A DNA stretch of 56,883 nt from Raillietiella orientalis (Eukaryota). This document shows positions 1 through 52,970 of this stretch, piece by piece. The notes under the pieces are model-generated. The model ran no database searches and was not told the origin of the DNA. It was given only the letters and a program-made list of their open reading frames with translations. Location: NCBI GenBank assembly GCA_036172245.1, contig JAYWIR010000156.1, forward strand, positions 1 to 56,883, in the 5' to 3' direction. The translations under genes and the position numbers were made by a program. The stretch's first letter is position 1. Every line of letters begins with the position of its first letter.

Positions 1-671
1 CATGCGTATTGGTTGTTTTCTGAGGGGCAGGAATTTGGCGAAGGGTTGTGTTGCCAACGTTTCCTTTGATATCGTTATAGTACATATTTCTGGCGTGAAG
101 AGGTTCTGAGGAAGTCAAGGACGTCCGGTTGCCATTGGCGTAGACAAAGTGAAGCCTTCGGGTTAGCTGCTGAGTCGTTTCTGTATACCCGGAAGCACTC
201 GTTGATAAAATTCATGTGTTTGAAGTAGGACTTGGTACGGTGTTCCAAGATCTACTTGTCAGGGTGTCCAAATCTGATGAGTTGGAGAATCTAAATGCAA
301 TAAATAAACAGTATGGTATGCAGGATTACCATTTTCTCGTAATTCTCCTCTGTTGGATTATCATCGAAGGCTCCGTGAGTCCAATGGTGCTCGTATTGCT
401 TCGAGCAGCATTGCAGGTTGGAGCTTGCTGATCCCTTGGCGCTCTCCAGAGGCTTCATGGAGTGAAAGGACGTCTCCGGAGTTGAGGAAGAGTTCTAGGT
501 TCTCAAGGATGCAGGCATCCTTGAATCTGGGGAGTTCCACGTTTCTCCCCTCTTCTCCGGCGAGTACGGCGAAGGAGCAGTGAATTGTGAACCATTTTCG
601 AGAAGTGCCGTGTGTTCGTGGATGCAGTTATTCAAAGTAACTCACCAGTGAGTGCAATAGGCATGAGGCAT
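1..671 (-). pseudogene. rep: Endogenous CRESS-DNA virus Rep (HUH endonuclease through SF3 helicase Walker A), decayed, runs off the window edge
   Basis: Manual minus-strand translation from ATG 671 gives motif I MPHAYCTHW*VTLNN, motif II GTPQIQGCLH (frameshifted), motif III LESAKGSASSNLQCCSKQYEHHWTHG, then LRQWQPDVLDFL and Walker A DIKGNVGNTT(F)AKFL. A GT-AG intron-like segment lies at 291-329. Stops and frameshifts throughout. Confidence 0.85.
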
Positions 672-728
672 CGTGGAGTAAGGCTGCGAAACAAGTAATG
701 GGCTGTGAGGTTTGCATACCTGCAAACT

Positions 729-765
729 GTGCAGTTTGGCAATCCTGGTATTACTCCGACTGCGC
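729..765 (+). other. Rolling-circle origin stem-loop with TGGTATTAC nonanucleotide
   Basis: GTGCAGTTTGG (729-739) pairs with CCGACTGCGC (756-765). The loop contains TGGTATTAC (746-754), one change from the canonical TAGTATTAC. It lies between a Rep 3' end and a Rep start codon. Confidence 0.75.
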
Positions 766-792
766 GTTGTCTGGGTTTCGTAGGAATTCCGC

Positions 793-1053: not shown

Positions 1054-1384
1054 GTCCTCTGAATGCACATTGGACCGCTGCATAGTTGCCACGTGTCATG
1101 TCGGTGAGTATATTCGTCCATCGTGAAGGCACTCTGCATGGACTTTCTTGCGGAATTGTAGTTCCATGGTTTGGCGCTTGATGAAGGAAATTGGAAAAGG
1201 TCTATTTGCGTCCGTTGCCTCCTTCGTCCTCCAGTGAAGAGTTTTCCGTTGTTTCGTGCCTTCAAGAAATGTATGTGCAATTCAAAGGAGCAGGAGATGG
1301 AATCCTTTAAGGAATAGCAATTCATTTGATTTCCAAAGGTTCCTTTCTACAATAGATGGTGGTAGTCTTGTTGGTTTGGTTGAG

Positions 1385-1750
1385 GAAGTGTACCATCGAT
1401 AAGCCGGAGCTCATTGCTCTGTAACCGAGATCCATTTTCGCCGACATAATGACGTGCGGAGACGGGTAGAGTTTGGTATTTTGTTGGGCAGGTGATTCGA
1501 TGCTTCATGGTGTCAAGGAGACCGTAGTTTATCATCCCCTGGGCATCGTTCGTGAGGTCGATTATGATGAGAGATGGTCCGCTATGCATATGAGCGCCAT
1601 CTTGTTTCTCGCAATTGTCTAGGTATACGGTGTTGCGCTTTAGGTAGATGTGTTCAGCCCACCCACGTTTCCCGGTGTTGACTTGGTAGCCTGCATACCA
1701 GCGTGTGTCTCTGTCGTTCGGCATTTCTTGCGTGTGTGCCGTTGCTGTGC
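1385..1750 (-). pseudogene. rep: CRESS Rep SF3 helicase fragment (divergent copy)
   Basis: Within ORF 1347..2036: PNDRDTRWYAGYQVNTGKRGWAEHIYL (Walker A remnant), SLIIIDL (Walker B), INYGLLDTMKHRITCPTKYQ, then frameshifted SPHVIMSAK (motif C). Confidence 0.75.
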
Positions 1751-1789
1751 CGTTCCATGTTTCATTGGATCTTCTATGGTCTTGAATTT

Positions 1790-2140
1790 TTCCAGTCCTC
1801 ACGTCGGAGGAAGAGAAACATGGCGAAGGTAGTTTTGCCTGCATTCCCTCTGGTGTTCTTGAGGGAAGAAATGCCTTTTGGATGCGGAGGTTTTCGTAAC
1901 ACGTCCACGATGCCCATTGACCGAGACGGAGCGATGCCATAGGGATCGTTGCTGTTTCGTTGCGGTGGACTCGGAAGCACTTCTTATGAAGTTGGTGTCC
2001 TTCGTTTAAAATTTGGTATGGTTTTCCAGAATGCATTTCTCGATATGCGCTGATCTGATAACTTGAAGTATCTGGATGTTTTGTGTTTGTACAGGATGAT
2101 TTGGTTTACCTTTTGTTTCTAGTCCTCTTTTGCTGAGTAA
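1790..2140 (-). pseudogene. rep: CRESS Rep central fragment (linker, intron, Walker A)
   Basis: AKED*KQK|ILQVIRSAHIEKCILENH...KCFRVHRN...LRLGQW...LRKPPHPKGISSLKNTRGNAGKTTFAMFL, homologous to the 1-671 copy. GT-AG segment at 2072-2109. Confidence 0.8.
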
Positions 2141-2829
2141 ATGGCGTCCTTGCCATTTTGTGTTTTTTTTTCCCGCGTTCAGGGCTGCCACGATTCCGAG
2201 GACGCACCAGGGAACTGTTAGGGACGTCGCCGGCTCCAGAGTTAAAGGCTCGAAAAGGCACTTCGAGATGTCTTTGGGGCCTCTCTCCGGGATTACCGGG
2301 ATCGTTTCGAGGCGATGCGAAATAGGTCGTAGGGTAAACCTGGGTTCCTTAACGTCGTCGACGAGTCCAGCCTTAATACCCAGCTCGCTCGTTCAGACGA
2401 GCGCCCTGCTATCAATGTCGAATGCAGGGCTGCCCACTTCCTGGGATAGGTCGACACGTTGTTCGCGTTGCGAGGATTGAGCATATTAGGGACCTTATCT
2501 TTGGACTCGAGAGCAGCAAGGACTTTGCATTCGTTGATGTCACCTTCCTCCGATGAAGATCTTCCTTAATCCCACTGGAGTGGGGTGAAGTTATTTCTCT
2601 TCACATTTACACTACATGTTTACTCGCTTTCTTACACAACAAAAAGGTCACTGTGAGGTCAGCTTCTTGGGGTTTCCCTGAGGTTATGCAAGTAGGGCAA
2701 TTGGGCGTTCCTTAAGCCTGGATCTTGACCACAATGCTCTGTAGGACGTATCGGTGTATCCTGACCGGCAATTCCGCAATTTCTAATGCTGATCTCCTTC
2801 GGGAGAAGACATTTCAAGATTTCCAATAA

Positions 2830-3165
2830 AAGTTTTTCGAAACTCTAGCTGGTTCCCTATTAGCGAAGACGATGACGTGTGGCGCTTCATAGTATTCGTT
2901 TGACCCTTGGTATGTAGGGTCGAAGAGAATTCCGTTTTTCAAGGATTCAATGAATGCGTACTCTACGAGTTGTGTCACGTCGCGGATGCATTCAACGACG
3001 ATGATGGGTTTGCCGTGGTAGAGAAGTGCTGAATCGGCCTTCTTGCAGCTTTGCATGTCTTCTGCAGAGGGAGAGGACGTTTGCAATGGTTGTATTCCCT
3101 GCATTTCCGTTGGTGTCCTGAATCCAGAATATGTTCCCTGGATGCGGAGGTTTTCGTAGCAGTTG
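2830..3165 (-). pseudogene. rep: CRESS Rep SF3 helicase fragment
   Basis: LRKPPHPGNIFWIQDTNGNAGNTTIANVL (ORF 2992..3174), then KKADSALLYHGKPIIVVECIRD...YAFIESLKNGILFDPTYQG...PHVIVFANREP (ORF 2814..3317). Confidence 0.85.
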
Positions 3166-3757
3166 TGAAGGCATTTTTCAGAAATCAAGTGATCACACAA
3201 AGGTGGTAAGACAGTGTGTGAAAGAATATGAGCACACATCTCACATGTGAGTCGAGGAAAAGATGGGGAAATTCTTGACAACGTCATGGCATCTTCACTT
3301 TTCCCAGCGGTGGACACTGGTTTGCTCTTTTCGTTTCCTATATCGTCTTCAACCCACCATGTGTTGCGTCGATGCTGACAAGGCGATGAGTGTATCGTCG
3401 CAGTGTTTTTAAGAGAAGAAAGTGGCTAGTAAAAAAATTGGCATGGTGCATAGGAAAACTTGGAATGTATGCATCACGCGTGGCAAAGGACCCAGATGAA
3501 GAAGAAGTAAATTCTTGAGGATGTATGCGTATTATGAGTCGCAGGGGAATCTGCTACACATTTTTGAGGTGTGCAATCTGCCAGATACGTGTCGTTATTT
3601 TCGATATGTGGAAACGGTGGGCGTACGTTGGAAGCTGGAATCGTTGACGTTGGGAATGTCTGGATCGACCATGGGTGAACACTTTGGTTTGAAGATATCG
3701 CACAGTAACTAAGTGTCGATGGATCCTGCGAATGCACCTGAAAGTGACGTTTTCTTC

Positions 3758-3963
3758 TCGGCGCGCTGCCGGGCGCTCTGGCCCCGGGGCGTTTCTGCCG
3801 GCATGCAGAGATCGACTTGGAAGTGGCACGGGAAAAGGGAATCCGTCTGTCTAATTAAGACAAAGCATCGCGATGGCCGTTGAAGCCACGTGAAGTCTGC
3901 CCAGTGCTCTGAATGTCAAAGTGAAGAGATTCAACCAACCGCGAGAAAACGGCGGGAGTAACT
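3758..3963 (+). rRNA. Degenerate 28S rRNA gene fragment ending just upstream of the R2 site
   Basis: GGGAATCCGTCTGTCTAATTAAGACAAAGCATCGCGATGG...CTGCCCAGTGCTCTGAATGTCAAAGTGAAGAGATTCAACCAA...AAACGGCGGGAGTAACT matches conserved LSU sequence, with substitutions and a deletion. Left edge approximate. Confidence 0.92.
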
Positions 3964-6900
3964 TTTTTTATTTCCATATGTCTAAAACTGGATAGGAGGC
4001 CCTAGGAGGGAAAGCGCACCAGGGATCAGCGTGTTGCGCTGATCTGGAATGTGTTTCGAAGGTTCACGAGTAGATGAATTGCTAGCAATCCGGAACCGAG
4101 GACACAATTCTTGGGGAAAAGTCGCATTTCTTTTGTGCGCATTCGGACCGATTACACTGTGCATGGGATTGGAGGACTTTTGAAAGTTCCGAGGGACTGA
4201 GTTCCTATATATTATGGATATGAGCACACGTTTCCTGGACGTGAAGTAGCCTTCATTTGTGGACAACCAGATCTTTTCATGTTCTCAAAGTCGAATCGGG
4301 ATCGGATGATCACTCGCAGTTGGATCAATTCCCTGAACGCGGCACTGCTCCAGGACACTTGTGGCACGGATGTCTCCCGCCAGGCGTAACGGGATGATGG
4401 TTTGGAGGTTACGTGAACAGAGTAAATGTTTGTGGCTGCTCGGATGACTGAGCACACGATTATCAAACAAATTGCCTTTCTTGGTGTGCATTCAGACCGA
4501 GGCAGCTGAAAACAGCGTTCGGATGCATAGCGATGCGACAGGGATCGTGTCCACTTGATCCTGGAATCCTTGATTCTGATAATCCCTGCCAGCGCCTGCA
4601 TATTTGTCGATCTTCTGGATCCTTGCGGTGTCCATTGATTCCTTCCGATTTTCGAATGGGATCGTAACGTCGAGAATGAGCATAGGTTGACCGTGCCAGG
4701 CAACGAAGTGTGGACGTATCGAACTGTTTCTAGATGGATCTGAGCGGTTAACTGGAATATTGCTCCCTTTGCGTCAGGCAAACCCCTCTAGAACGTTCAG
4801 GACTTTTTTGTGGCTTATCGGAATTGCAGCCCCAAAGTCCCTGGTGCAATGGCACAGCACGTGAACAAGCCTTTCCTTGGTATATAGGCAGTGACGACAC
4901 GCCTCGTGGAACCCCGGCCCCTTCCCGTTTTCATTTAGAAATAATTCATTGTGGCGGGCACGATGTATAAACAGCCAATGGCACGAACGATTAAGGTCTG
5001 GTCGTTCCATGAAGGACATGGATGGTGGATGAAGGGCAACGCAGTCTGTGATGCGTCCCTGATGTGGTTTGCCTCTAAGAGTATCGCTTCTGTTGAGTCT
5101 TTTGGGACCGCGAATTGATCGATCGACAATCTTTTGATCGGTTTCGCGAATTGTCTCGTCGTTACTTCATTGGAGATTTGACCAGCTCTGAGAGACCATT
5201 TTAGGTCAAGCCTTTTTGGGGCTTCCCGAGCACTGGTGCAGTAGTCGGCTGATGGAGAGCAGGGTTGTCGTTACCACGGTTATATCCTTCTATCAAGGTG
5301 TCGGTTGGTTGTTTACGCACTTTTCTGCGCACATTCCCTTCCAATGAGGCCCACGCCATTTCTTTAATGCTTGGAATAGCAAATGAAAGGATTTTGAGTG
5401 CAAAGTCTGCTGCCATTATGTTGTCTTCCTCTACAAATATCACAAAACCTAAACTACCTTTTGCTGAAGACACATGAGGTTATTCCGTGGATGATGCTTA
5501 AGTGAGCGGGAGAATTTCTTCCCTGAGGGCTTTCTTGATGGTTTCTTTCAGCCCAATCGAATAACTTCTGGGTTTTGACCCCATGCGCATGGCGTGGACG
5601 AACGATGGAAAGATGAACGTTTCGAGGTCATCAATTTTTAGCCATGGGTCGGAATGCTCCTCCAATGTTTTTCTCATGAGAGACTGGAAATTCGATTGCA
5701 GATCCTCGCTATGCATGGCATCAAACCCTATTGACCTTCCCAAGTGACTGTGGGTGCCAATTTCCGTGAGGGCAGGGAAGAGCTCAGCTGCCACTCGGAA
5801 TCGTCGGGTTCGTACCGTTCTTGGAGCACGTGGGTCGTATTCAAATGATGCCCACTTTTTAATTTTTATCGGTAATCCAAGTCTGCGGCAACTGCGCTAC
5901 GGCAATCGAGCGCGTTCTGGAGAATTTTTGCATCCTTGGTAAGGACCACTAAATCGTCAGCGTAGGCCAATTTGATTGCTTTTGGTATTTGGTAGTCTAT
6001 GGAAACACATAAAGGCTCCATAGTAATACTGAAGAGTAGCCCTGAGAGTGGGCACCCCTGTTTAACTCCCTTTGCAAGGGGTATGAATGATGGAAGACCT
6101 TTAGGGGTAACAATCTGCGTAGCATTTTCCGAGTACATGTGACAGATGAGCTCCGTGAAAGTGTCACCGGAGTTCGCACTGTAAAGTGTCCTTAGCTGCT
6201 GGGAATGAGGTACGGTGGCAAACGCATCTTTCAAATCAATCCATGCTATACTCAGTGCTTGGTGATGTCGCTTGCAATACTCCATTTGATGTCTGAGCAT
6301 GGTGTTATGCTTCAGTACTCCATCAAATGGTGAGAAGCGCTTTTGATGCGGGCCGAGGATGTTATTGGGTGTGATCGGAACTCGCAGGCTTCTGGCCAAG
6401 CACTTGGCAAAAATTTTGGCGATCGTCCTGCCGATAGCTATAGGGCGGAACTGCGAGGAGTCTTCTTCTTGCTCAGTTGATTTCTTGGGAATGTAAATTG
6501 TCGTGTACCCTTTCCACTCCTGTGGTGTACGGCGATGTGCTAAGCATATGTTTTATAGTGGTTAAGGGAATCGGCATTTAGGGTCCAACTTTTGAAGCGC
6601 GGAATAGGGGATACCGTCCGCTCCAGGGGCAGTGTCCTCGCACGATCGCAGGCATTCCATGCTTTCGCGGCTATCGAAGGTGGTCACATCCACCTGCATT
6701 TGGACAGATTCGTCGTCGGGATCCCATGATATTGGGTGAAAGTTTGAGCTCGCCATGAAAAGTGCAGTGAAGTGCTGCTCTGTTGCTTCCGGACTTGCAT
6801 TACACTTTACCGGATTGCCGTCAAGGATCAGTCTTATAGCTGGACGGCGGTTTCCATTGGAAAGTCTTTGCATAGATCTCACAGTCTTCCTTGAGTGCCG

Positions 6901-8135
6901 ATCGTTATTGGCGGCAAATCAAACCAGCGTAGCTTCAGAGTGCTTCTAATGAGGTCATCAGCTATGTTTAGCCCCATCATCGCCAGGCCCCAGCGTTGCT
7001 TCGAGTTTTTTCGAGATTTCCCAGTTTCCGAGTTGATTCTGCAAGCGGCTCGGCAATATTCATCGTAGGTCTCCTCTCAGCTCTCGGGTATGGTGTTTCA
7101 GCGCACGTGCGTCTCACCGGGGAGATTTTCTCTCTATCGGCAGAGTTTAGCTGCTCCTCAGCCATGAGAACATCATAGCGAGAGCTGAGAGCGAGGAAGG
7201 TGCTCATTTCAGGTAGGCTGTTTCGTTGAGATATCCTTTGGCGTAAGTCGCACGCATCGATATTTCGGTGACGTCGCAGAGAGACCGTTCGCCATTGGTT
7301 GTCGTGTTCGGGCGCCCTTGTCGGAGTGGTTTGAACGGGAGCCAGATTAAGGGTTCGCGAGTGGGAATGGGTGGGGTGTGGTTAAAAGCTTGCCTGCTGA
7401 CCTCGCAGGCCAAGCATGTAGTTTCTTTCGGCAGGTCTGGTTATGGTTTCGTGCCATCGAGCGTGATAAGCGGAGGCTTTTTGATCATGGAAGCGTTGGC
7501 CACAATTCTGTTCCTGGCCCAGTAGGGGTGCTGACACTGCGACAGGTATTCCTTTCGGTTCGCATCGATGTCCCCAAACCGGAATTTGCACCCGCGCGTT
7601 CCATCTTTTACACTCCAGCAGGGAGTCGCGTTGCGGAATCCAATGCGAGGTTCAGATATGTCGCCGCAAGGACCCACGCATGCTCTTCACCTGCTGAGTT
7701 GAGGTGCTCCATCTGCATCTGGGCAGCCTGCAGACCAAACAATTCGTCGTTGTCAGGTGCACTACCATGATAGCTGGTATTTCATCAGGTAACGGTTGTC
7801 CATGATCCTCTGCCGTCCTGTTTCCCTCGTTGTCAATGATGTCGGGTAAGGGCGTCACATTTCTCGGCACCGATGGTGCCACTTTGCAAGTGCTCGACCG
7901 TTTTCTGCGTGCAAGCGGACAGTCTAAACTAAAGTGATTACTTACTGAGTTAACAAATTGTAGACCTTTCCTATCCGTGGCGGCTGCTGCTTCTGCGGGT
8001 CGTAGGGTTTTCTGGGGTAAACACTTCTGTTTCTTCCGCCTTCCCTCCACCGATCGCACATATGCTAGGTGTACAGGGGGGAGAATGTGGCACTCCCACC
8101 GTTACTGTTTCTTCCGGGGAAAGCTGCTCGAGCGA
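3964..8135 (-). mobile_element. Utopia/NeSL-like RLE non-LTR retrotransposon, copy U1 (most complete, decayed)
   Basis: 3' end AATAAAAAAA abuts 28S. RLE LILDVTIPFENRKE..QKIDKY; CCHC CRHCLYTKERLVHVLCHC; RT WIDLKDAFATVPH, GVKQGCPLSGLLF, LAYADDL (ORF 5866..6399); domain 0 APGADGIPY; C2H2 zinc-finger remnants at 7440-7790. Many frameshifts. Confidence 0.9.
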
Positions 8136-8173
8136 ATTCATTTTTTTTTTTTTTTTTACATGGCGGGAATTAC

Positions 8174-11100
8174 TTTATTGTAACCAAGTTTACATGAATA
8201 TGTTCGAGTACAATATTCAAGTACACTGGAGGAGAGTGCACGAGGGATCAGCGCGTGGCGATCATCCGACAAGTAGTAATTATCGTCCGGTCAGACGATT
8301 CATGAGCGTAAGCTGACCTTTTATTTCGAGTGTGACTTCGGGGTTCAATGTTGGCACATTAGAGGCAGGCGAAGGAATCGTCTATGTTTAAAGCAGATGG
8401 CACTTAAATTCCGGTCTCACGAATTATGGGCCAAAAAGCCGCCTTTATTTTCGTTTGTCTTCAGAAGTCGCAAATATAAAGTTTTGCGAATAGATTGCAT
8501 TGCACATGAGTGTTTGAAATTAAAACGATAACTGGTCGCATGAGTTCTGTAGAAGAATTGGCTTCGAATTTACAGTTGGATCAAGTCTTGGCAAGCAGCT
8601 CGGCACCAAGGGGTGATCGGGACTGCTAGTGCACCATTGGGATTGATTGATGGTTTGACAGAAAGATGACTGGCATAAATGTTCCTGGCTGCACGATTGA
8701 CCGAGCACAGGAGTTTAGGAAGTAGTGCCTTTATTTCTCGGGCATTTACGCCTAAGCGACTCAAGACGGAATCATTTTTCGGGAACCAGCTGCCCAAGGA
8801 TCCGATGACAATTGCTTCTGTCTTACTTGGTAGCCCTGGTTCCGGTATTTGCCCTGTATTTCGACGTAGTTGTCGCTCTTCTGTTTTTTTGCCTCATCCA
8901 TGGACTCTTTGCGATTCTCGAAGGAAATCATTACGTCCACGATGAGCAGGCGCTGTCCATCCGAGGCGACGTCGTCCGGTCGGAGATTGCTGTTGATGGA
9001 AGGGTCCGACCGGTCAACCGTAAAGTGGCTCCATTTTGGGACGGCAGAACGCTCTATCATTTATAGTATTGCATCATGTTTCGCAGGGATTTGGGATCCT
9101 ACATGCTTTGTACAATGGCACAACACGTAGGCGAGTGTTTCCTTCAGTAAAGCGCAGTGCCGGCAAGCTTCATGGAATCCTGGTCGCTTGCTGTTTCCAT
9201 TTATGAACATTTGGCTCAGGCGAGCTTGATGAATGAATTTGCAGTCACAGTGACTGTTTAGATATGGTCTTCTCATGAAGGCCATGGACGCTGAGTGGAG
9301 GGCGACGCAGTCTATGGTGCTTCCCTGATCTGGTTTGGCTCTAAAAGTATCGCTTATCTTGAGTCTATTCAGACCGCGAATTGATGGAGCGACGATCCTT
9401 CGATCGGTTTCTCGTAATATCTTGTTCTTTACGTCAATGGAGATTTGGCCTGCTGTAACGGACCATTTCAGGTGCAGCCTTTTTGAGGCTTCTCGAGCTC
9501 TCGACCAATAGCCGTCTGGATCTCGCGACGGTTGATGGAAAGGAGGGTCCATGTTTCCGTGGATGCATGCTGCTATGAGAGTATCAGTTGGTTGCTTTCG
9601 CACTTTTGTGCGAAAAGTTTCCTTCAGTGAAGCCCAAGCCATTTCTCTCATGATCGGATCGGGGCATGAGAGAATTTTGAGTGCAGAGTCTACTGCCATT
9701 GTGTCGGCTTCCTCTGCTAGTATCACGAGAACTAAACTACTTTTTGCCAAAAACCCTTAAAGGAAGTCCGTGGAGGATGCTTGAGTAAGAGGAAAAATTT
9801 CTTCCTTCAGGGCTTTCTTGATGGTTTCCTCCAGCCCACTCGAATGACTTCTGGGTTTTGACCCCATGCGCATGGCGTGGACGAACGATGGAATGATGAA
9901 CGTTTTGAGGGCATCAATTTTTAGCTATGGGTCCGAATGCTCCTCCAATGTTTTTCTCATGAGAGACTGGATATTTAATTGCTGATCCTCGCTTTGCATG
10001 GCATCGAACCCTATTGACCTTCCCAAGTAACTGTGAGTGCCAATTTCCGTGAGGGCAGGGAAGAGCTCAGCTGCCATTCGGAATCGTTGGCTTCGGACCG
10101 TTCTTGGAGCACGTGGGTCGTATTGAAATGATGCCCACTTTTTGAATTTTATCGATAATCCAAGTCTACATACTCAGTGCTTGATGATATCGCTTTTAGT
10201 ACTTCATCTGGTATCTGAGCAGAAAATTATGCTCTGAAACTCCATCATACGGTTAAAAGCCCTTCTGATGCGAGCAGAGGTTACGCTTGCAGGTGATTCA
10301 GTCTTGTAGTCTTCTTGCCAAACCTTTTGCAAAGATCTTCGCGTACGTCTTGCTCATTGCTATCGGGCGGTACTGCAAGAGGTCTTTCATGTGTTCAGTT
10401 GTAGGTTTAGGAATGAGTATCGTCGTAGACACCTTCCACTCTATAGGAATGCGCCGCTGTGCTAAGCAAATGTTAAAATTAGATTTAAGGAATCGCCCTC
10501 CTTGAAGTAGGCCGACAGTTCGGCGGCCACGTCAAGAGACGCCGACGCAGCAACCTTCTTCCAAGCCCTCGCCGGAACGTCGGGGGCCGATTTGCTGATG
10601 GGGCATGAACCCACATCCACGGGATGGGAGACGAGGGTCTCTCGTCTTCGGTCGCAGGTTTTCCGGCTTCTTCCGGCATTTCTGCCGTCCAACGGCCGCC
10701 TTCCTACACACACTCAACTACTAGTTGGCTTCACTTGAAGGAGCTCGCGAAAAACGCGTGCGACCACCAGGCCGCCCTAATGAAGTGTCGGTTTAGAATG
10801 TGGCACAACCACTTCTAAGGTTACTTCAGGGGAGGGTTGATCGAAAAAATCCAACTCAATTTGCGTCGGAGACGCCACTGTGAGGGTCGAGTGGCTAGAA
10901 TTGCACGGGGAATGAGTTTCCGCGTGTATCGTCACAGGGAAGCTCACAGGTGGCAGGGGACGCAAAAGCTCCTCGAGTTCCATGCTCATTCTGCGATAGA
11001 GGAACCCCTGATTTTCTGGTAGCAATGGCACAGGTGGTTCATTCACGGTGGTCGGACTAAGGTGTACTGACGTGGGGGATAACACTGCTATCGTGCTCTT

Positions 11101-11785
11101 CGATTTCTTCGTCTAGCAGGGATTCAGTCAATGTCGAACTTCCTCCTGGTGGTGAAGCACTAGCACAGCTACGATTGAGGTCTACCTTAATGTTTCTGAC
11201 GCGGTTACTCACATCCGCGGCCGCAGTGGCAAAAACACATTTGACTAACGGCCACGGAACTGAAGCGTCAGTGACATGGGTCTGCCACAGTTCTCTTTCG
11301 GTTGAAATGAATCTTAGTGACGGTGGCATCGTTTAGCCACTTCAATATTACACATGCTTTAACTCGGTGGGAAAAGTACAGTACATAGTGGTTAATACCA
11401 TATCTGTTTCTGGGGAGTTTAGGGATTACCGGTTCGGGTCGTAATGCCTCCTTGCCACGTGGATGCGAATGGTTTATCGTACACATTAGCCATTAATTAC
11501 AGGTGGTTAATTCGACTACGGCGGCTTTGATTCCTCAACCAGGCCTCCAAGCAGGCGCTTTGCTTGTAGATTTGAGGTGCTCCATCTGCATCTGAATAAC
11601 GGGCAAATCAAACAACTCACCGTAGGCACTTACACTATTAGGATGTCCTCTTGGGTAAGGAGAGCTGATATTTCATCAGGAAGCGGTTGTCCATGATCCT
11701 CTGGCTTCCTGTTTCCCTCGATGTCTATCATGTTGGGTGGCGGCTTTACATTTCATGGCACCGATGGTGCCACTTTGCAAGTTCG
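8174..11785 (-). mobile_element. Utopia/NeSL-like element copy U2 (RT core deleted) plus rearranged N-terminal scraps
   Basis: RLE LRPDDVASDGQRLLIVDVMISFENRKE and GSWFPKND; KPDQG, FIHQARL and CRHCALLKETLAYVLCHC (ORF 9061..9750). The RT jumps at ~10165, omitting the QG and YADD motifs. The 3' end TTTATTGTAACC follows a 28S target remnant. Confidence 0.88.
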
Positions 11786-14450: not shown

Positions 14451-14465
14451 GCTCAAGGAGTAACT

Positions 14466-17075: not shown

Positions 17076-17079
17076 TAAG

Positions 17080-19775: not shown

Positions 19776-19779
19776 GTCC

Positions 19780-23590: not shown

Positions 23591-23617
23591 AGGTTTTTCA
23601 CGCGGGTGAGCCGGGGC

Positions 23618-29970: not shown

Positions 29971-29994
29971 TTTGAACCCGGTTGCGTCGGGACG

Positions 29995-35900: not shown

Positions 35901-35930
35901 GCCCGCACTGATGCGGGAACGCTGATGAGG
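29995..35930 (-). mobile_element. Near full-length (~5.9 kb) Tx1-like non-LTR retrotransposon B, pseudogenised
   Basis: ORF1 35828-34076 (zinc knuckles, Ala/Lys-rich tail). ORF2 ~33782-30313: APE (RNVNG, LAILQE, TNVYAP, DFN, DHDRL), RT (KTPGKDGLPAEFY, DLHKAFD, GIRQGD, A*ADD with TAG replacing Tyr) and CCHC CLRCKAIESLTHLLLEC. AATAAA at the 3' end. Confidence 0.93.
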
Positions 35931-41443: not shown

Positions 41444-41522
41444 GACTCCCTTAAGATGGCCAAATGCCTCGTCATCTAATCAGTGACTCCCATGAAAGGG
41501 TTAACGAGATCCCTACTGCCCC
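41444..41522 (+). rRNA. Short degenerate 28S rRNA fragment spanning the R2 site
   Basis: GACTCCCTTAAGATGGCCAAATGCCTCGTCATCTAATCAGTGAC...TTAACGAGATCCC, versus conserved GACTCTCTTAAGGTAGCCAAATGCCTCGTCATCTAATTAGTGAC. Confidence 0.9.
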
Positions 41523-41939
41523 AACGTGCCATTGGGTTCAGATGGCTAGTGGATTTGAGGAAACCGTCGCAATTTTGATGCAAGTGATGTGTTTGCTGTA
41601 ATCCTCGAGTTTGGTATGATGCTGGAGGGTACATCTCCCGCCCTTGCCTGCATGGCCTGGTTGGAGTATCTGGAATGCAAGAATTTGTAGACCCAAAGGA
41701 GGAAGTACGAACGCAAATGAAATACCTTCTTTTCGTGATTGTCTGTGGACTGCTCGTTGTCCAGTATCCCGAAACCTCATCGTCTTGGATCCTGCTTGCT
41801 GCCGTACTGAAAGTCGCATTTTGCAGATCCCTAGACGTGTTCGAGATGAGAACGATGAGATGGAGGGCGCTGCATCTGTAGCGGTTGACCGATGCGCAGG
41901 CCGCTTAAACTGATATTCCAGAACGGGGAGGGACAAGGA

Positions 41940-42720
41940 TAAATCAAGTCAACGAGATTCGGTGGGAGGGGCAACGATCTTTATGTTGCTCCGTTTTCAG
42001 GAGTATAAAAAGAAAAGGATAAAAATGAAAACATCAAGAAATTAATAGAGCGAAAAGGGACAGGGGATTGAAAAATATATATTGAAAAATAAGGGGAGGA
42101 GGGGGCGTAGATCACCGGGTTCGCCGTTCCAAGCCATCCATTATCCAGCGCTGGATGGCCGTGATGTCCTCCTTGGCTTCCTCCTCCAGGTGACCTCTCT
42201 TCGCTGCGCGGTGATTTGTGGCACTAGTCGGGCTGAAGCGTTGGCACGAACGCAACCCACTTTTGCGACAACCGCCTGTCGAAAGGCCTCTCGGAGCAAA
42301 GAAGAGCGGCGGCACGCCTCCTGCAGTATCCCGCTGGTGCAGCACTGCTGCGGCGTGCCTCCGCCACAGTTGCTGGAGGCCAGTGCAGTCCAAAGGCGGG
42401 TGCGGCATTCTCTCCGCCGACCCGCATCTAGTAGGTGAAGGGCAGTACTGCCTGCTCCCAGGAAAGGGAGACCAACGAACCGTCCTCACAATGGGGAAAG
42501 ACCACAGGGTCTTCTGGAGGAACACTCAAAGGTTCGCCCACCCAAGGGGTCTCTTCGAAACAGCACGCGGAGTGCCAGCTTCCAGCAAATCACAAGCCTT
42601 CCAGCCAGCGTAGAGTTGAAGTCCACTGCTATCAAGCGCGCTCTCAGTACTGCTGCCACGGTCAGCCAAGGAGGCGAGCTGATCCTGTGATCTCGTTATA
42701 GATGCTGCATGTCCTGTTCT
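41940..42720 (-). mobile_element. Tx1-like 3' fragment
   Basis: CCHC remnant CPSPTRCGSAERMPHPPLDCTGLQQLWRR followed by a U-rich 3' UTR (A-rich on plus at 42000-42095). Confidence 0.6.
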
Positions 42721-45500: not shown

Positions 45501-45799
45501 GAATGTTTTGGCATAAATTCATCCCACCGCGAGTCCGACTGGGGAAAGGGGGCGACTGGGGTGTACTTATTGCTAGTTGAAAACTTCACCCATTACCCCG
45601 CTAAAGCAGCGTCAGATAACGCTGCCGTGGCAATTTTTGTGTGCCCCGAGTGGGCAAGCAAATTGCCTAAGCAGTAACCATCGGAACAGTGACGGCCCTC
45701 CAGTAAAGTGCAGTCACTGTAGCAGCTCCCAGGTGAAGTATTCGAACCCCCGGGCCACGGCGGAGCACTTATCGTCCGAATGGAAGATGCAGCACGCTG

Positions 45800-46860
45800 C
45801 GGAGATGTGGCCCGCGGCACCCTACCGGATGGAGGTGTCATCGGGCGGCAATGGTCCAGCCCGCGGCCATCTTACAAGGCGGCGGCGGCGCATCAGTCGC
45901 GAAAGGCGGTTCACCACGTGGAGGAGAGTGCAGACGTGGCGACGCCATCTTTTAACGCTGCTCCGACGCTGTCATTGTCCTATGCGGAGACAGCGGCCGC
46001 GAATACATTCGTACGGTCGGTACGAAACTACGGTACGAAAGCCACGTGTCTTGATCCTTCGGGATGTTCCAGACCTGATGGCAGCGGAAAAGTGGAGTGT
46101 GCGAATAGTCACGTTTAAAAGGGGACTGATTCGCGTGCACAGCATCCGCGAGGCCTACTTCTCGCCCAGCTGGGTGAACGTGGACTTTGACTGTGCGCAG
46201 TCCATAATTCATTGCGCGAGTGGATTCAGCATCCACACGGATGATGAAGTGGTGGCAGACTCCCTTCTCGAACAGGGAATCAATAATGATGAAGGAATTC
46301 CGCGCGGACTCGGCGACCTGTCCACCACGAGGGTCCACATCGCCGGGGTCAGCAGGTTGACTTCGCAACTCGAAGTGAGGAAATACCTCCAACAGTTTGG
46401 AGAGATCATGCAGGCGGCCTTCAGCAACATCGTGGAGAAAGTCTTCTCGTGCGAGGGCTTCGCAAAGATGAAGCTCAAGGAAGGTTTCCAAATTCCGGGA
46501 GTATATCATCTTGACGACCACTCCCGGGAAGTTATACTCCGGTTCAAAATGGAACCAGCGTTTCGTAACATACGCAAAACATTCGGGCAGCGGATATCAG
46601 CGCTGGTGCACCAAAGCGTGCTGCTACCGGTGCAGCAAAATTGGACATCTTGCACAACAGTGCTGTGTGCCGGAGGCGTGTTCCCTCGGCGATCTCCCTG
46701 GCCACGCCAAGTGGAACTGCGGAAGGCTGGGGGAGTGGCGTGCATTGCGGGGTCTCTCTCCCGTGCGGGAGGAACCACGAAAACAGGCTAAAGAGCCGAA
46801 GAAAAAAGGTGAGAAGAACCGTGAAAGTACCACTCGTGTCGGAGGATGCTCGCCAAGCAG
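45800..46860 (+). mobile_element. Tx1/L1-type ORF1 (RRM-like plus zinc knuckles), plus strand, frameshifted
   Basis: TRVHIAGVSRLTSQLEVRKYLQQFGEI (ORF 45577..46791); CYRCSKIGHLAQQC and CSLGDLPGHAKWNC (ORF 46511..46900). Confidence 0.75.
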
Positions 46861-47651: not shown

Positions 47652-47772
47652 GAAAATGATTGCAGGGAAGTGAGCGGATCCCTTCGAGGAAGCTGCGCCC
47701 TTCTGAATTTCGGAAGTGTCTCTTCGAGGTTCTCCTCAGAGGACGTGACCTGAACCCGGTCACGCCGGGACG

Positions 47773-48770
47773 TTTAATCAGAATAACAAACCGCAAACTT
47801 GAAGGGATATGTATCCCTTCATGACACAAGAAACGCCCATGAAAAAAGTACAACCCGGAAAACCACCGGCACGCATGCCCGCTGGCAGAAAGAAGGGAAC
47901 GGAGCGAGGGGACACAAAACAAACAAAAAAGAAGGGAGGGTGGGAACATGGATCTTTGGAATGAAACGTTCCTTTTCTTCTAGAAGCGGTGCTTGACGAT
48001 GGCGACCACACTGGCGACTTATCCAGGCAGATGAGGTCAGCTTGCAGCTGCCTCCAGAAATTTGGCGGCTATGCTGGTGGCGTTCTCTCGCTGCGAACTT
48101 CCTTGTAGCTTACGGCGGGCCGCCACGATGGCGCGGATGCAACTGATTGTCTTTCTTCAGTCCGTCTTCGCTGAAGAAGCGTCGCAGCCGCTTGATGGCT
48201 GTATGCTGGGACGACGAAGTGCCGAAGCAAATCTTCGCCTGAATTTCCGCAGGTCACGGAGGTCCAGAATCAGGTGCTGAAGCGAATTCATACACCCGCA
48301 CCGGCGACAGCTTGGTGAAGCAACTCCCCCGGGAGTCAGGTGTCTGCGCTTGTCGCACTGGAAGCCCCAGAGAAGGAATAGCAGAACACTCTCTTTGATT
48401 TTGTCCATCGTCAGGATGCCTAATCCGGCATCCTCTCGCGGCGCCATCAGATCTTTTGATGTGATCCGGGACCTCGCAACGGTCCACGACATATTACGTA
48501 GGAGGCGGTTCCTGCATACCTTGATTGCCAGAGAGGGTCGACAAAGAAAGAACATGGGTCGGGGGAACCGAGCTGTTCCAGACGGCCGCCCGTTCCGGCA
48601 AGAACAACTTACCACGAAGGAGTGGGCGAAGAGCACGGTTTGCCTTCTGAAGGCAGTATGACCACGCTCCTGCAGCGCAGAAGTCGCCCAACGGCATGCC
48701 AAGGTACTGGGACTACCTGCCCGTGGGGACTCCCAGGAGAATCCAGTTGGGCTGCCCTTCCCTGAATGAA
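47773..48770 (-). mobile_element. Tx1-like element F, 3' part with deletions
   Basis: APREDAGLGIL, LLFLLWGFQCDKRRHL and CRRCGCMNSLQHL; the 3' UTR is similar to that of element B (30000-30300). Confidence 0.85.
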
Positions 48771-51700
48771 GTGAATTTCGAACCAGCGATGGGGAACGAG
48801 GAAGGGTGTGAATGCAGAAGGTAAACGCGCATCAGAGGTGTCGTTTGTATGTCTCACATACGTGTTCGGCGCGGTTTGGGTTCGAATACTCCGAATGAAT
48901 CGACACAGTGCGCCGTGGGTTCCGAGTCCACCCCATAGGATGACGCTCGTTGGCCTGCATTCATCCGGGTGCAGCACTGGTAGCGGTTCATCCCGGTTGC
49001 TCTCGAGGAGGGCCGCGATAAATAAGAGTCGGCCTCTCCGTCCTTCCAGGAATCAAGGAGAGGGGGTTTCCCTCCGGTTGTGAAGGAGCTGCCCCTCTTT
49101 CCGGGTGGGACCCCTTCGCGTCAGAATGATGGAGTAGGTGTGTCTCCGGCACCTCTCCAGAGAGTGCAGGGAAGCTAGCCGATACCCTCGGGGAAGCTGC
49201 GCCCTTCTGAGTTTAGGAAGCGTCCCTTCTGAAGAGAAGCTCCAGAGGAGGAGAAACAAGATAATGACCGAAATAGAAGGAAGGAACAACAGCGCTAAAA
49301 AGAGATGGTGCTGGCTTGACCGGATGAGAAATCCAGGAAGAAGTGGAAATGAATAAGGAATTCATGAAAGAGAACTGGGTTTTAGAAGGATGAGGTGTAC
49401 GTATAAAGAAGGTACTTGTGCTGCAGGATGGGGAAAAGAATTGGCATGCACATTTATTGGTGAAAGGTATGAGACTGAGGGGGGCAGCAGAGAATAAGGA
49501 GGTGAGGCCAGGTATTGAGAAGTGCAATTTAGAAGATCGACAAGAGATCTATATGTAGTCAAAAGGAAACCTCGATTCTTGAAAATATCTTGGATGTACA
49601 GGATAAAATATTCAGGCGAAATGGTTTCGAAAATGCATCTTGTAGGTACAAGTGTCGTTACTAGGTAACAGTTTGAGCTAGTGAGGATGCGCAGCGTATG
49701 AAACCAAGTGCTGTTAAGGATGAAGAACTTTAAGAGCAGGTTTGAGAGGAAAAAGCGAGTGAGCGGAGTGTATTTAGCATAGTTGATGTGGAGAGCATCG
49801 CGAGGGAAGAGGTAGGCTAGTTCGGGAGGCCTGGACGGAAATCAGTAATCCTGGTTGTTTCCAAATGATGGGAGCAGAACGGCATGCGGCACTACAAAGG
49901 AAATGCAGGAGGTAAAGATAGGGCGCCTTGTTGGACTGTGGTACGGAGATTGTGTTCATAAGGAGTAAGTTCGTTTCGAGGCTTAGTTACTGCTTGAGGA
50001 ATCTCGTGGTGCGTTAACTGAAGAACAGCATGATCAAGTTGCAGCCAATGCTCACGTTTGGAAAGGATTTGCAGATCTGAAGAGGATGAGTTGGTATTGG
50101 TAGGTCTTTCTTCCTGGGTCAAGTCACATTAAAAGCCAAAGTTGCTTGGATTCCCGTTCGGGGATTCGAAGCAACACATCGGGATGAAAAAATTGCAAGT
50201 GGTGCTGCTTTTGATCTATGCCGTTTCGATCACAAACTGCAGGTTTTCCGTTCCCAAAACATACATCGTTAGTGATGTGTGAAGCGGCAACCATTGCTTA
50301 GGGTGATCTGAAGGCGTTCCTCGTGAGCGTCAAGAAGGCGGATGATAGGGGCAACATCCTTCCATGGAAAGAAGGTGTTTGCAGGTTCATGCTGATAGCA
50401 CGATGCAAGACATAAGGAGGCGGTGATCGAGTGGGGGAAGAAGCTGCAATGGCGTTTTCTACAGGAGAGGTAAAGAGAGGAGCATGGATATTGGAGCACG
50501 GCAGGATCAAAGGGGATGAGAATGCAAAACGTAGTTGCATACGAGCTCGAATGCGACGCGAGTTGAGTAAATAAGAGGGATGACGAACAAGGAGGAATCA
50601 GCGTGAAATCATGAGGTGAGCGAGAGAGGATCTAAAGTTCGATGGCGCGTCCCCAGCAAGGGGACCGAGGTGATTACTACGCGATAGGATCGACGGTGGT
50701 AGCAAAGCTCTTGGTTTAGGAAATGGTGAACTGGAAGTAACTTTCGGCATGAAGTAGGAACGGACGTGTTCTATCAGTCCTGTCAGCTGGAAAAGGAAAG
50801 TAGCATCAGGCGTGGATATGCGAACATCTTTTTGGAAGCTCAGAATGTGCATCACAGTGGATTTGGGGGATTAAGGAACACCTACGTTGCGTCGTCAGGA
50901 AATCTCCATGAGCTCAAAGGTGAGTTAATAACAGTATAGGAAAGATAGGCGACAGGAAAAGAGTAATTATGCGGAACTCGGCAGTGGCTCAGGTCTGTTA
51001 AGAGAGCGTGACGGTAAAGATCATTTAGAGAGAATGAAGGGTTGCTACGTAAATCGATGCTGCTTACGACTTGTCATTTTTCAGAATGATTAAACAAAGT
51101 TGCTTGGTAGCGATTAACGGGGATCTGAGTATTCGAATTACCGGGAGCCAAGTGTGAAATTCCTGAAATTCCTGTTGAACAGGAATCGTGTTGTGGGAGA
51201 GGAAAGATTAGGGGAGTGCGAATACTGCAGCCCTATCCTATGTAGCTGGATGTCAAATGACCAGGGCCGCAGGCTCTTCTTCTCGCGCCGATTGCTGATT
51301 TCCCATGGAGTCTATCTGATCGTCCACTAAGCCATCCGAGATCGGTAGTTCCAGTGGAACAGCAAACAGTGGACAATGGGTTTCGACGTTTCGGCAATGC
51401 GGTTTCATGGGAGAGACGACCCTGTTGCCAACGAAGAGCGAAAGACTCGGGAATAGATGGCTTCATACAGGGAAGACGAGGATTCAAGGAGTGAGTGAAG
51501 AGGGGGAAGGCTGCATCGGGGGATAAGTGGAGATCCGATCCTATCAGAGTGAGCAAAGGCTCATTAGCGGAAGACCAGCAGTCGTGTGGCGCGGAGTCTG
51601 ATAAGCAAAGAGTGGAGAGTTGTTCCATGGAGCACCACGGGAGAAACGATTTGCTTTTGAGGAGCCTCTTTCAAATTATCTTAAATGAAAGCCATGAAGT

Positions 51701-52970
51701 CGGTCAGATAAACTTGTGGATCACTGGAAAAGAGGAGCCAGGGAGACACCTGCGGCTGAGACGGGTCAATGGAACCGTAACACCACAACCACTTCAGTGC
51801 TCACAATCGCCAATGTAAAAAGCTATCCGACGATGTGCATTACGATGTTTCTTTTTGTTGTTTTTTAAAAAAAAACGAAATTGGTAATTCGGGGAAGTTT
51901 AACAAAGATTCCCATGCAGCCACATCTCATGACTTTTGTTTTTCTACTGAAACTTTGTTCCTTCCTCGCATAGTTCGGAAATTGAAGTTCAAGGACGGTG
52001 TTTTAGAGAGTAAAGGAAGAATGGAGTGCAAACCTGAAAGAGCAAGCACCACCCAGAACACATATGAAAAACAATTTCCACGCCTGAGGCGTTAAAGCAG
52101 GTTGCTGCAAGGCAATCCCTTATGCGTTAGAAAAGGCGGTGTGGAATATCTGCTACAACTATGAAAACATATTTCAGACACAGACTGTGTTTACTGTGCA
52201 ATGCAATCAAACTCTCAATACTACGATTTGGTAAATAAAAGTGCTTATGTAAGTTTTGTCTCCATGCATCTTTCAATTTGTGCTTCTACTCCTTGAAATG
52301 GTTGCCCACAGAGAAGGAAAGCTGAATTAAGAATTCATTGAAATCTTGCAAACTGCCCTGCAGGCAACTGGCAATTTAGAACACGTCTATTTCGGCTTCT
52401 ATGTGGTGCTGCAAAGTACAAACTCGTTGGGGATGCTCTCACCACATTTCAAAAGAAATCAAATTGCATTTCCTTAAATCATTATGTCTGCACAGTATGG
52501 ACGCACAGCAAAATGGAGAGATTTGGATTCTATTTCGGCCATTGCCATAATCTGAATCAAACGTCATACATAATTTCGAAAATTTGCCAACGTCACATCT
52601 GCCACGTTTTCATTCTCTCCCCAAACTCCAATGACTGTTTTCAGTCCTTTTTTTCAATCTTCGCCATCACCCTCTTTCTTACCAAACGTTCAGTTGATGT
52701 TATTTTTCCAAATTTGCATTATCAATAGACTGCAATTTCCTTTTTTACTTTATTCTCATTTTCCGAATTCATTCCAAAGTCATACTTTTCATGGAGAAGT
52801 CAAAGCAAGCATTTTACAATAGTGAATTATACATCCGAAAAGCCGCAAGAGTGGTTACACTACAGCAGCACTTAAATCGTTTAGCATTATGCGGAATGAA
52901 ACGACAGAATAAACGTAACTGTTAATTTCATATCAGCATTATGTCAATTAAAATAGCAGGGCACAATACT

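What the first reader, a model, noticed from the sequence alone, without database searches (positions are those of the whole stretch)
1..51830. Strand-polarised archive of retroelement and virus fragments, resembling a uni-strand small-RNA master locus
Seen: about 52 kb (open to the left) of densely packed, broken pieces from unrelated parasites (CRESS Rep, RLE and APE retrotransposons, a possible RNA-virus gene, a nad3 scrap). All recognisable coding pieces lie on the minus strand except three Tx1 pieces (27060-28310, 35931-37902, 45800-46860). Pieces are butt-joined or internally deleted rather than cleanly nested. Known: flamenco-type piRNA clusters show this antisense bias and trap EVEs; clade I nematodes such as Trichinella and Trichuris lack Piwi/piRNAs. 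Inference: a plus-strand transcript would be antisense to nearly everything here, so this may be a sequence-memory defence locus. It would be especially notable if the host has no Piwi.
Basis: partly seen in the sequence, partly recalled or inferred. Interest (0 to 1): 0.9.

Follow-up and report, generated by a model that had tools for sequence, protein, structure and literature searches.

The report
Strand-biased pile of dead retrotransposons
A 52-kb stretch beside a mitochondrial complex-I gene is packed with broken jumping genes that mostly point the same way, and much of that shared direction comes from how they inserted, so a defence role is neither shown nor excluded.

Summary
The core observation holds. 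About 70% of 1-51830 is recognisable retroelement sequence, and 88% of those bases lie on the minus strand.

The viral and organellar parts do not hold. I found no CRESS Rep, no RNA-virus gene and no nad3 scrap.

Much of the polarity is mechanical:
- An orphan 28S fragment on the plus strand is split by a 15-kb head-to-tail array of at least six dead R2-superfamily copies, all antisense to the 28S. A remnant of the target lies between two of the copies.
- Copies of an ORF1-like element each follow a U4 pseudogene in that pseudogene's own orientation.
- Two L1/Tx1-like copies are butt-joined in tandem.

With the array counted once, the count is 13 of 16 units on minus (p=0.02). For the two families with no detected target (T and L) it is 8 of 10 (p=0.11), or 7 of 9 (p=0.18) if the butt-joined pair counts once.

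I could not test for a plus-strand transcript, small RNAs, host identity or Piwi status. My verdict is a retrotransposon graveyard with insertion-driven polarity. A uni-strand small-RNA cluster remains possible at about 0.25.

The parts
1350..3425 (-). Two related ORFs of unknown family, V1 (1350-2105) and V2 (2817-3425).
   Evidence: They match each other at BLASTP E 8e-8. Nothing else matched: Pfam, PDB, the 5.8-billion-protein search, the Atlas and IMG/VR. The AF2 model has pLDDT 36.
3830..3963 (+). Left half of an orphan 28S fragment (LSU model 2121-2264). It ends in GGCGGGAGTAACT.
   Evidence: Rfam scores of 94 bits; sequence.
3964..8140 (-). R-1, the most complete R2-superfamily (RLE) copy. 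Its poly(A), seen as T7 on the plus strand at 3963-3969, abuts the 28S left half. It carries frameshifts.
   Evidence: tblastn gives q348-1128 of P0014 in 3 frames. RVT_1 E 4.6e-24. R2 structures are the best PDB hits.
8141..8174 (.). T17 run followed by a 13-nt remnant of the 28S left half (GGCGGGAATTACT, 2 mismatches), lying between R-1 and R-2.
8175..10990 (-). R-2, an R2-like copy with internal deletions.
11540..14518 (-). R-3 (N-terminal fingers and RT, no 3' end) plus a stray N-terminal fragment at 11540-11801.
14953..17086 (-). A 5'-truncated, internally deleted R2-like copy (14953-16447) and a C-terminal nuclease fragment (16509-17086). A 159-bp stretch, 15588-15746, is 100% identical to 16819-16977.
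17104..19159 (-). Two tandem R2-like 5' parts (N-terminal zinc-finger region). The 5' end of the array is here.
19160..19390 (+). Right half of the orphan 28S fragment (LSU model about 2271-2482). It starts CTTTTAAGGAAGCCAAATTCC.
   Evidence: Rfam 158 bits; motif match.
19751..20191 (-). Isolated mid-element fragment of an R2-like copy.
20933..23616 (-). L-A, a second L1-like (APE-type) family.
   Evidence: RVT_1 E 2.6e-4; tblastn; tblastx.
24032..25364 (-). T-C, an ORF2 C-terminal piece of L1/Tx1-like family T.
25972..26496 (-). ORF1-like fragment (25972-26301) just downstream of a U4 snRNA pseudogene (26354-26496), in the same orientation.
   Evidence: Rfam U4 at 40.5 bits, E 9.5e-6, below the gathering score of 46; tblastx.
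26989..28316 (+). L-B, an inverted and internally deleted copy of family L. First plus-strand piece.
28466..29972 (-). T-B, the 5' 1.5 kb of family T. It is butt-joined to the 3' end of T-A with no poly(A).
   Evidence: 80% identical to 34461-35930; junction alignment.
29973..35932 (-). T-A, a full-length (5.96 kb) but dead L1/Tx1-like copy with an ORF1 region, APE, RT and zf-RVT.
   Evidence: 5 in-frame stops in 1074 codons. The APE N-terminus is in another frame. zf-RVT. L1 ORF2p is the best PDB hit.
35918..37582 (+). T-F, an inverted, 5'-truncated and internally deleted copy of family T, abutting the 5' end of T-A. Second plus-strand piece.
37939..38617 (-). Small pieces of family T (37939-38252) and family L (38383-38617).
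39092..41224 (-). An uninterrupted 711-codon frame: extra C2H2-like fingers, an S/P-rich linker, then the R2-like N-terminal finger region. It is cut off before the RT.
41448..41532 (+). Second 28S scrap (LSU model about 2269-2355), on the 5' side of the piece at 39092-41224.
   Evidence: Rfam 53.6 bits in a local search, missed in a wider one; motif match.
42184..42642 (-). Small piece of family T.
45521..46845 (+). U4 snRNA pseudogene (45521-45655) followed by a 404-codon ORF1-like frame (45577-46788). Third plus-strand piece.
   Evidence: Rfam U4 at 44.1 bits, E 1.1e-6, below the gathering score of 46. The Atlas suggests CCHC/ZCCHC3-like at 0.88, a lead only. Inverted homologue at 25972-26301.
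47710..48767 (-). T-D, a 3' piece of family T with an internal deletion.
49100..51850 (.). Unannotated tract with a purine-rich plus strand (GC skew up to +0.5). The block ends near 51850, where GC drops.
53346..55783 (-). NDUFS7 gene with short introns. It flanks the block and is not part of it.

Best explanation
The block is a gene-poor graveyard of dead non-LTR retrotransposons. Its strand polarity is largely a by-product of how these elements insert.

Shown:
- A roughly 375-bp orphan piece of 28S rDNA lies on the plus strand. It is split by a 15.2-kb head-to-tail array of at least six R2-superfamily copies, all antisense to the 28S.
- The most complete copy sits next to the nick site. A 13-nt remnant of the target lies between it and the next copy.

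Inferred:
- The same nick in the 28S top strand was used repeatedly for target-primed reverse transcription. Each new copy landed between the 28S left half and the older copies, so all of them share one orientation.

Also shown:
- A second 28S scrap in the same orientation sits beside another copy of this family.
- An ORF1-like element occurs twice, each time just downstream of a U4 pseudogene and in that pseudogene's orientation, once on each strand.
- Two L1/Tx1-like copies are joined tail to head with no poly(A).

Inferred:
- Later deletions and small local duplications produced the butt joints and internal gaps.

No defence function is needed to explain the pattern. None is excluded either.
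For: - 28S halves: 3830-3963 matches LSU model 2121-2264, and 19160-19390 matches about 2271-2482. Both are on plus.
- All R2-like pieces between the two halves are on minus and lie in head-to-tail order.
- The T7 tail abuts ...GGCGGGAGTAACT. A T17 run and then GGCGGGAATTACT sit at the next junction.
- No HDV-like ribozyme or R2 RNA family was reported at E up to 0.1. That fits an element that is not co-transcribed with 28S, though the evidence is weak.
- The second 28S scrap is on plus at 41448-41532.
- The pairing of U4 with the ORF1-like element is seen on both strands.
- The T-A/T-B joint is shown.
- Every copy is dead: stops and frameshifts appear.
- Only non-LTR families were found among 361 ORFs.
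- Once the coupled units are set aside, the bias is 8 of 10 or 7 of 9, p=0.11 to 0.18.
Against: - The families with no detected target still lean to minus, 8 of 10. Counted as 13 of 16 units the bias is nominally significant, p=0.021.
- Two separate 28S scraps and a stray R2-like fragment share one orientation over 22 kb. Serial insertion at one nick does not explain that on its own.
- R-3 lacks a 3' end, so the array is not a clean record of serial insertions. Unequal crossing-over or deletion must be added.
- 30% of the block is unannotated.
- The block keeps 47-59% GC and CpG o/e of 0.8-1.1, beside a flank at 32-38% GC with CpG o/e 0.57. This model does not explain that contrast.
- No expression data could be obtained, so a small-RNA role is simply untested.
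Confidence: 0.58

Rival explanations
1. The block is a uni-strand (flamenco-type) small-RNA source locus. A promoter left of the window drives a long plus-strand transcript that is antisense to most elements. It is processed into piRNAs or siRNAs, and selection keeps insertions in the antisense orientation.
For: 88% of annotated bases and 13 of 16 units are on one strand over at least 52 kb. The content is made of dead fragments of several families, with butt joints. Known uni-strand clusters look like this: in Aedes cluster 38, 73 TEs and 17 EVEs are almost all on one strand (PMC7161354, passages seen). The families with no detected target still lean 8 of 10.
Against: No transcript or small-RNA evidence could be obtained. 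A large share of the polarity has a mechanical cause. The virus-derived pieces were not confirmed. Only non-LTR families are present. The residual bias is not significant. The plus strand would run head-on into the 3' end of NDUFS7.
Confidence: 0.25
2. The block lies inside a long plus-strand host transcription unit, such as a giant intron. Selection against sense-oriented insertions, which carry poly(A) and splice signals, left mostly antisense copies.
For: The antisense bias of LINEs within genes is a general pattern; this is recalled, not from a call. The window is open on the left.
Against: No plus-strand ORF gave a credible family hit. The only gene on the right is on the minus strand. 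No exons were seen.
Confidence: 0.05
3. The join near 51.85 kb is an assembly chimera. The repeat block and the NDUFS7 flank would then not be neighbours, or not even from the same organism.
For: There is a sharp change at about 51.85 kb, from 47-59% GC with CpG o/e 0.8-1.1 to 32-38% GC with CpG o/e 0.57.
Against: Retroelements often differ in composition from their host; this is recalled. Nothing at the junction looks like an assembly artefact. There are no Ns.
Confidence: 0.05

Closest known systems
Uni-strand piRNA clusters: flamenco in Drosophila and cluster 38 in Aedes aegypti (PMC7161354, abstract and passages seen)
   Same: A long repeat-rich block with nearly all elements on one coding strand, made of fragments, lying next to ordinary genes.
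   Different: No transcript, small-RNA, promoter or PIWI evidence here. The content is only non-LTR elements, whereas the Aedes cluster holds Gypsy, Pao/Bel, Tc1, MITEs and 17 EVEs. No EVE was confirmed here. Much of the polarity is explained by target-fixed insertion.
R2 elements in 28S rDNA (PMC5035012, passages seen)
   Same: RT closest to solved R2 proteins. N-terminal C2H2 fingers and a C-terminal CCHC plus restriction-like nuclease region. Insertion in the same small region of 28S.
   Different: The copies are antisense to the 28S, whereas canonical R2 primes on the bottom strand and so lies in the sense orientation. The junctions are at model positions 2264 and about 2271, which by my recall is some 9-15 nt upstream of the classical site. 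The copies have poly(A) tails, sit in an orphan fragment of about 375 bp rather than an rDNA unit, and are stacked head to tail.
Non-LTR elements that target multicopy small-RNA genes, such as Utopia in U2 snRNA genes (PMC4640811, listing and abstract only)
   Same: An element copy lies beside an snRNA (U4) sequence in a fixed relative orientation, seen twice.
   Different: The U4 matches cover the whole model and are not split. The spacing between U4 and the homologous segment differs, 53 nt against 816 nt. A U4-LINE template-switch chimera is therefore an equally good reading. Target specificity is not shown.
Hebe, a subtelomeric non-LTR element of Adineta vaga (PMC2861651, listing and start of abstract only)
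   Same: Per that paper's title, copies are inactivated by internal deletions rather than 5' truncations. Several copies here look the same.
   Different: No sequence relationship was tested, and the host here is unknown.

Membership tests
Uni-strand (flamenco-type) piRNA cluster | Long repeat block with elements mostly on one strand | tested here: met
   88% of annotated bases and 13 of 16 units are on minus. A large part of this is mechanically coupled.
Uni-strand (flamenco-type) piRNA cluster | A single long precursor transcript antisense to the elements, from a promoter at one end | not testable with these tools
The left end of the block lies outside the window.
Uni-strand (flamenco-type) piRNA cluster | Abundant strand-specific small RNAs (1U, phased) bound by PIWI proteins | not testable with these tools
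   No reads and no genome to search for Piwi, Ago or RdRP.
Uni-strand (flamenco-type) piRNA cluster | A record of many unrelated parasites, including captured virus fragments | tested here: inconclusive
   Four non-LTR families were verified. No LTR, DNA-transposon or virus family appeared among 361 ORFs. 30% of the block is unannotated.
R2 superfamily (RLE non-LTR retrotransposons) | An R2-type reverse transcriptase | tested here: met
   RVT_1 at 85.7 bits. The best PDB hits are R2 proteins, 1.4e-19, ahead of L1 at 3.8e-11.
R2 superfamily (RLE non-LTR retrotransposons) | N-terminal C2H2 zinc finger(s), and a C-terminal CCHC motif plus restriction-like endonuclease | tested here: met
   tblastn covers q23-141 and q931-1171 of full-length homologues. 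The motifs can be read in the translations. phmmer against the PDB found nothing for the nuclease ORF.
R2 sensu stricto | Insertion at the canonical 28S site in the sense orientation (bottom-strand priming) | tested here: not met
   The elements are on minus and the 28S halves are on plus. The poly(A) tail is joined to the 28S top strand after GTAACT. The canonical rule comes from PMC5035012.
L1/Tx1-type APE non-LTR retrotransposons | APE, RT and a C-terminal zinc-binding domain, with an ORF1 upstream | tested here: met
   tblastn covers 30379-33761. zf-RVT E 1.6e-4, below the cut-off. L1 ORF2p is the best PDB hit. A weak zf-CCHC lies in the upstream ORF.
Tx1 clade specifically | Phylogenetic placement with Tx1 reference elements | not tested
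   No named Tx1 reference sequence was available. The nearest hits are unnamed, at 55% and 33% identity.
CRESS-DNA virus Rep (endogenous copy) | HUH endonuclease motifs and an SF3 helicase P-loop | tested here: not met
   No Rep or helicase family in 361 ORFs. None of the 3 Walker-A matches is in a Rep-like context. No HUH plus Y..K arrangement. ORFs V1 and V2 have no relatives anywhere searched.
Phlebovirus/tenuivirus nucleocapsid (endogenous copy) | A match to Tenui_N at Pfam's cut-off, or to solved N proteins | tested here: not met
   16 bits against a cut-off of 25, over 34 residues. No PDB match.

The most novel reading that the evidence does not exclude
The block is a true uni-strand sequence-memory locus. 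A plus-strand precursor antisense to nearly all its elements feeds a small-RNA pathway, in a host that lacks Piwi, so a flamenco-like architecture serves a non-piRNA (siRNA/RdRP) system. Orientation-fixed insertion into the orphan 28S and U4 scraps would then be the way the locus recruits new sequence.
Probability: 0.04. Interest if true: 0.85.

Novelty: new variant of a known kind. Interest (0 to 1): 0.35.

Why it matters
As a strand-polarised block, this is a cautionary case. Site-specific non-LTR elements can produce flamenco-like polarity with no selection at all, so orientation counts must allow for coupled insertions before a block is called a small-RNA cluster.

The more unusual item is the R2-superfamily lineage stacked antisense in a 28S fragment, a few bases from the classical R2 site. 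If the host's real rDNA shows the same, an rDNA-targeting element has flipped its priming strand. It would then have to supply its own promoter rather than ride on rRNA transcription. That bears on how target recognition evolves in R2-type proteins, which are now used for gene insertion.

My literature check was limited. Two searches listed 27 papers and none showed the phrase. The two reviews I opened say nothing about antisense insertion.

Tried and rejected
- Whole-frame translations with X at stops against Pfam. One call of 4 plus-strand frames ran and gave 0 families (15). I dropped the approach as too bulky.
- No genome is held, so I could make no genome-wide orientation background and no Piwi/Ago/RdRP search.
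- Host identification through NDUFS7 failed. 5517 hits were found and the best 120 listed. The nearest single-copy proteins are insects, an annelid and molluscs at about 76% over 191 aa. No near-identical protein appeared.
- The cluster look-up of the nearest family-T relatives gave no useful names.
- V1/V2 as a Rep-like helicase was a resemblance I saw by eye only. Nothing supported it: Pfam at E up to 5, PDB by sequence and by profile, the protein search, the Atlas and IMG/VR. The AF2 model was too poor (pLDDT 36) to send to a fold search.
- The ORF1-like frame at 45577-46788 shows no similarity to the frame I compared from the family-T ORF1 region.
- TRF found no tandem arrays.
- I fetched 80 metagenome loci with relatives of the R2-like RT, at 23-34% identity, to compare their orientation to 28S. 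0 of 80 held any of three 28S motifs, so there is no comparative evidence.
- The 13-mer of the 28S left half is not enriched window-wide: 13 matches against 11.4 expected. Only the match at the R-1/R-2 junction is meaningful, because of its position.
- Earlier findings of this scan: three look-ups returned nothing.

Full report
WHAT THE WINDOW IS

The window is 56883 bases with no Ns. From 1 to about 51.85 kb, GC is 47-59% and CpG o/e is 0.8-1.1. To the right, GC falls to 32-38% and CpG o/e to about 0.57. The right flank carries an NDUFS7 gene on the minus strand, with short introns, at 53346-55783. No genome is held for the window.

UNBIASED DOMAIN SCAN

I scanned all 361 stop-to-stop ORFs of 70 aa or more, in six frames, against Pfam.
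- 15 of 361 had some family at E up to 0.01.
- Eight of these are retroelement-type hits, and all eight are on minus-strand ORFs. They are RVT_1 at 5869-6552, 11756-12214, 15180-15641 and 22705-23208; zf-RVT at 30316-31365; two weak zf-CCHC; and a weak C2H2 set.
- Two are the NDUFS7 exons.
- Five are plainly spurious sub-threshold families: FPN1, Omega-toxin, WYL, Keratin_B2 and Tenui_N.
- No LTR, DNA-transposon, Rep, helicase or RNA-virus polymerase family appeared.

MAPPING THE ELEMENTS

I obtained full-length relatives of the RT at 5869-6552 (213 hits, the best at 38-40% identity). I also obtained relatives of the read-through ORF2 at 30316-33537 (19388 hits, the best at 55% and 33%). I laid both sets on the window by tblastn. 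Self-comparison by blastn and tblastx linked the non-coding parts.

This gives four verified families:
- R, an R2-superfamily family with a restriction-like endonuclease. Its best solved-structure matches are R2 proteins.
- T, an L1/Tx1-like family. It has one full-length but dead 5.96-kb copy at 29973-35932, with 5 in-frame stops and at least one frameshift.
- L, a second L1-like family.
- O, an ORF1-like element. The Atlas suggests CCHC/ZCCHC3-like at 0.88, which is a lead only.

The plus-strand pieces are 26989-28316 (L), 35918-37582 (T) and 45577-46845 (O). Everything else that can be oriented is on minus. My annotated pieces cover 36208 of 51830 bases, and 88% of those bases are on minus.

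WHAT WAS NOT FOUND

CRESS Rep:
- No Pfam hit.
- The 3 Walker-A matches in six frames are not in a Rep-like context.
- There is no HUH plus Y..K arrangement.

Two related minus ORFs, 1350-2105 and 2817-3425, match each other (E 8e-8). By eye they reminded me of an SF3 helicase core. Nothing supports that:
- Pfam at E up to 5.
- PDB by sequence and by profile.
- The 5.8-billion-protein search.
- The Atlas.
- IMG/VR.
- The AF2 model is unusable, with pLDDT 36.

The 'RNA-virus gene' has only a Tenui_N match of 16 bits against a cut-off of 25. That is what chance gives across 361 ORFs. For nad3, there is no ND3 core motif under five genetic codes and no AT-rich island.

THE KEY STRUCTURAL RESULT

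Targeted Rfam searches show a 28S fragment on the plus strand, split in two.
- The left half is 3830-3963, LSU model 2121-2264. It ends ...GGCGGGAGTAACT.
- The right half is 19160 to about 19390, model about 2271-2482.

Everything between the halves, 15.2 kb, is family R on the minus strand in head-to-tail order:
- R-1, nearly complete, 3964-8140.
- R-2, 8175-10990.
- R-3, 11787-14518.
- A 5'-truncated copy, 14953-16447.
- A nuclease fragment, 16509-17086.
- Two tandem 5' parts, 17104-19159.

R-1's poly(A), seen as T7 on plus, is joined directly to the 28S top strand. Between R-1 and R-2 lie a T17 run and a 13-nt remnant of the 28S left half with 2 mismatches.

Canonical R2 primes on the bottom strand and so lies in the sense orientation (PMC5035012, passage seen). 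These copies are antisense instead. By my recall of the classical site, they sit about 9-15 nt upstream of it.

The simplest reading is repeated target-primed insertion at one top-strand nick, with the youngest copy nearest the 28S left half, followed by deletions. R-3 lacks a 3' end, so serial insertion alone is not enough.

A second 28S scrap on plus, 41448-41532, lies on the 5' side of another family-R piece. That piece is a 711-codon open frame at 39092-41224 with extra N-terminal fingers.

OTHER COUPLED ARRANGEMENTS

Two U4 snRNA pseudogenes score just under Rfam's gathering threshold and are 72% identical to each other: 45521-45655 on plus and 26354-26496 on minus. Each lies immediately upstream of a family-O copy, in the same orientation as that copy. 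Family T copy T-B (28466-29972) is butt-joined to the 3' end of T-A with no poly(A).

STATISTICS

- Every fragment counted: 21 of 24 on minus, p=0.0003.
- The 28S-bounded array as one unit and V1/V2 as one unit: 13 of 16, p=0.021.
- As above without the unverified V unit: 12 of 15, p=0.035.
- As above, with T-A and T-B also as one unit: 11 of 14, p=0.057.
- Families T and L alone, with no detected target coupling: 8 of 10, p=0.11.
- T and L with T-A and T-B as one unit: 7 of 9, p=0.18.

So the polarity is real at the base level. Its statistical weight rests on copies whose orientation was fixed by their target or by tandem joining. The residue still leans the same way.

WHAT COULD NOT BE TESTED

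- A plus-strand transcript and small RNAs.
- Host identity. The NDUFS7 exons are at most about 76% identical over 191 aa to named proteins, mostly protostomes.
- Piwi, Ago and RdRP content, and the genome-wide orientation background.
- Comparative orientation of relatives. 0 of 80 metagenome loci carried 28S motifs.

COMPARISON WITH KNOWN SYSTEMS

Uni-strand piRNA clusters share the architecture. The Aedes example has 73 TEs and 17 EVEs, almost all on one strand, plus one antisense transcript and phased piRNAs (PMC7161354). Here only the architecture could be tested, and it has a simpler partial cause. Loss of piRNAs in several nematode lineages is documented (PMC4323106, listing and abstract), but nothing ties this window to a nematode.

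VERDICT

This is a graveyard of dead non-LTR retrotransposons with insertion-driven polarity (about 0.58). A genuine uni-strand small-RNA cluster remains possible (about 0.25). A Piwi-less memory locus is a long shot (about 0.04). The antisense 28S-targeting R2-like array is the most interesting concrete feature and needs the host's rDNA to confirm it.

Noticed in passing
3830-19390: R2-superfamily copies lie antisense to the 28S fragment they split. The 3' junction comes after ...GGCGGGAGTAACT and a 13-nt remnant of the target sits between two copies. Canonical R2 is in the sense orientation. Two literature searches and two reviews gave no mention of antisense rDNA-specific non-LTR elements.
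   Followed up: partly
45521-46845 (+) and 25972-26496 (-): A U4 snRNA pseudogene sits directly upstream of an ORF1-like element copy, in the same orientation, on both strands. This could be a U4-associated or U4-targeting element, or a U4-LINE template-switch chimera.
   Followed up: partly
39092-41224 (-): A 711-codon frame has no stop in a block of dead elements. It holds extra C2H2-like fingers and an S/P-rich linker ahead of the R2-like finger region, and is truncated before the RT.
   Followed up: partly
15588-15746 = 16819-16977; 18160-18255 vs 23073-22978: Short patches of 100% (159 bp, direct) and 98% (96 bp, inverted) identity lie among copies that are otherwise 66-80% alike. This suggests recent local gene conversion or template switching, or an assembly artefact.
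   Followed up: no
49100-51700: The plus strand is strongly purine-rich (GC skew +0.3 to +0.5, AT skew up to +0.3), with no recognisable element or tandem repeat.
   Followed up: no
about 51850: There is a sharp change in composition. The repeat block has 47-59% GC with undepleted CpG (o/e 0.8-1.1). The gene flank has 32-38% GC with CpG o/e about 0.57. Old dead copies have not drifted toward the flank's composition.
   Followed up: no
29972/29973: Two family-T copies are joined tail to head. There is no poly(A) and no intervening base, and family T ends without an A-tail.
   Followed up: partly
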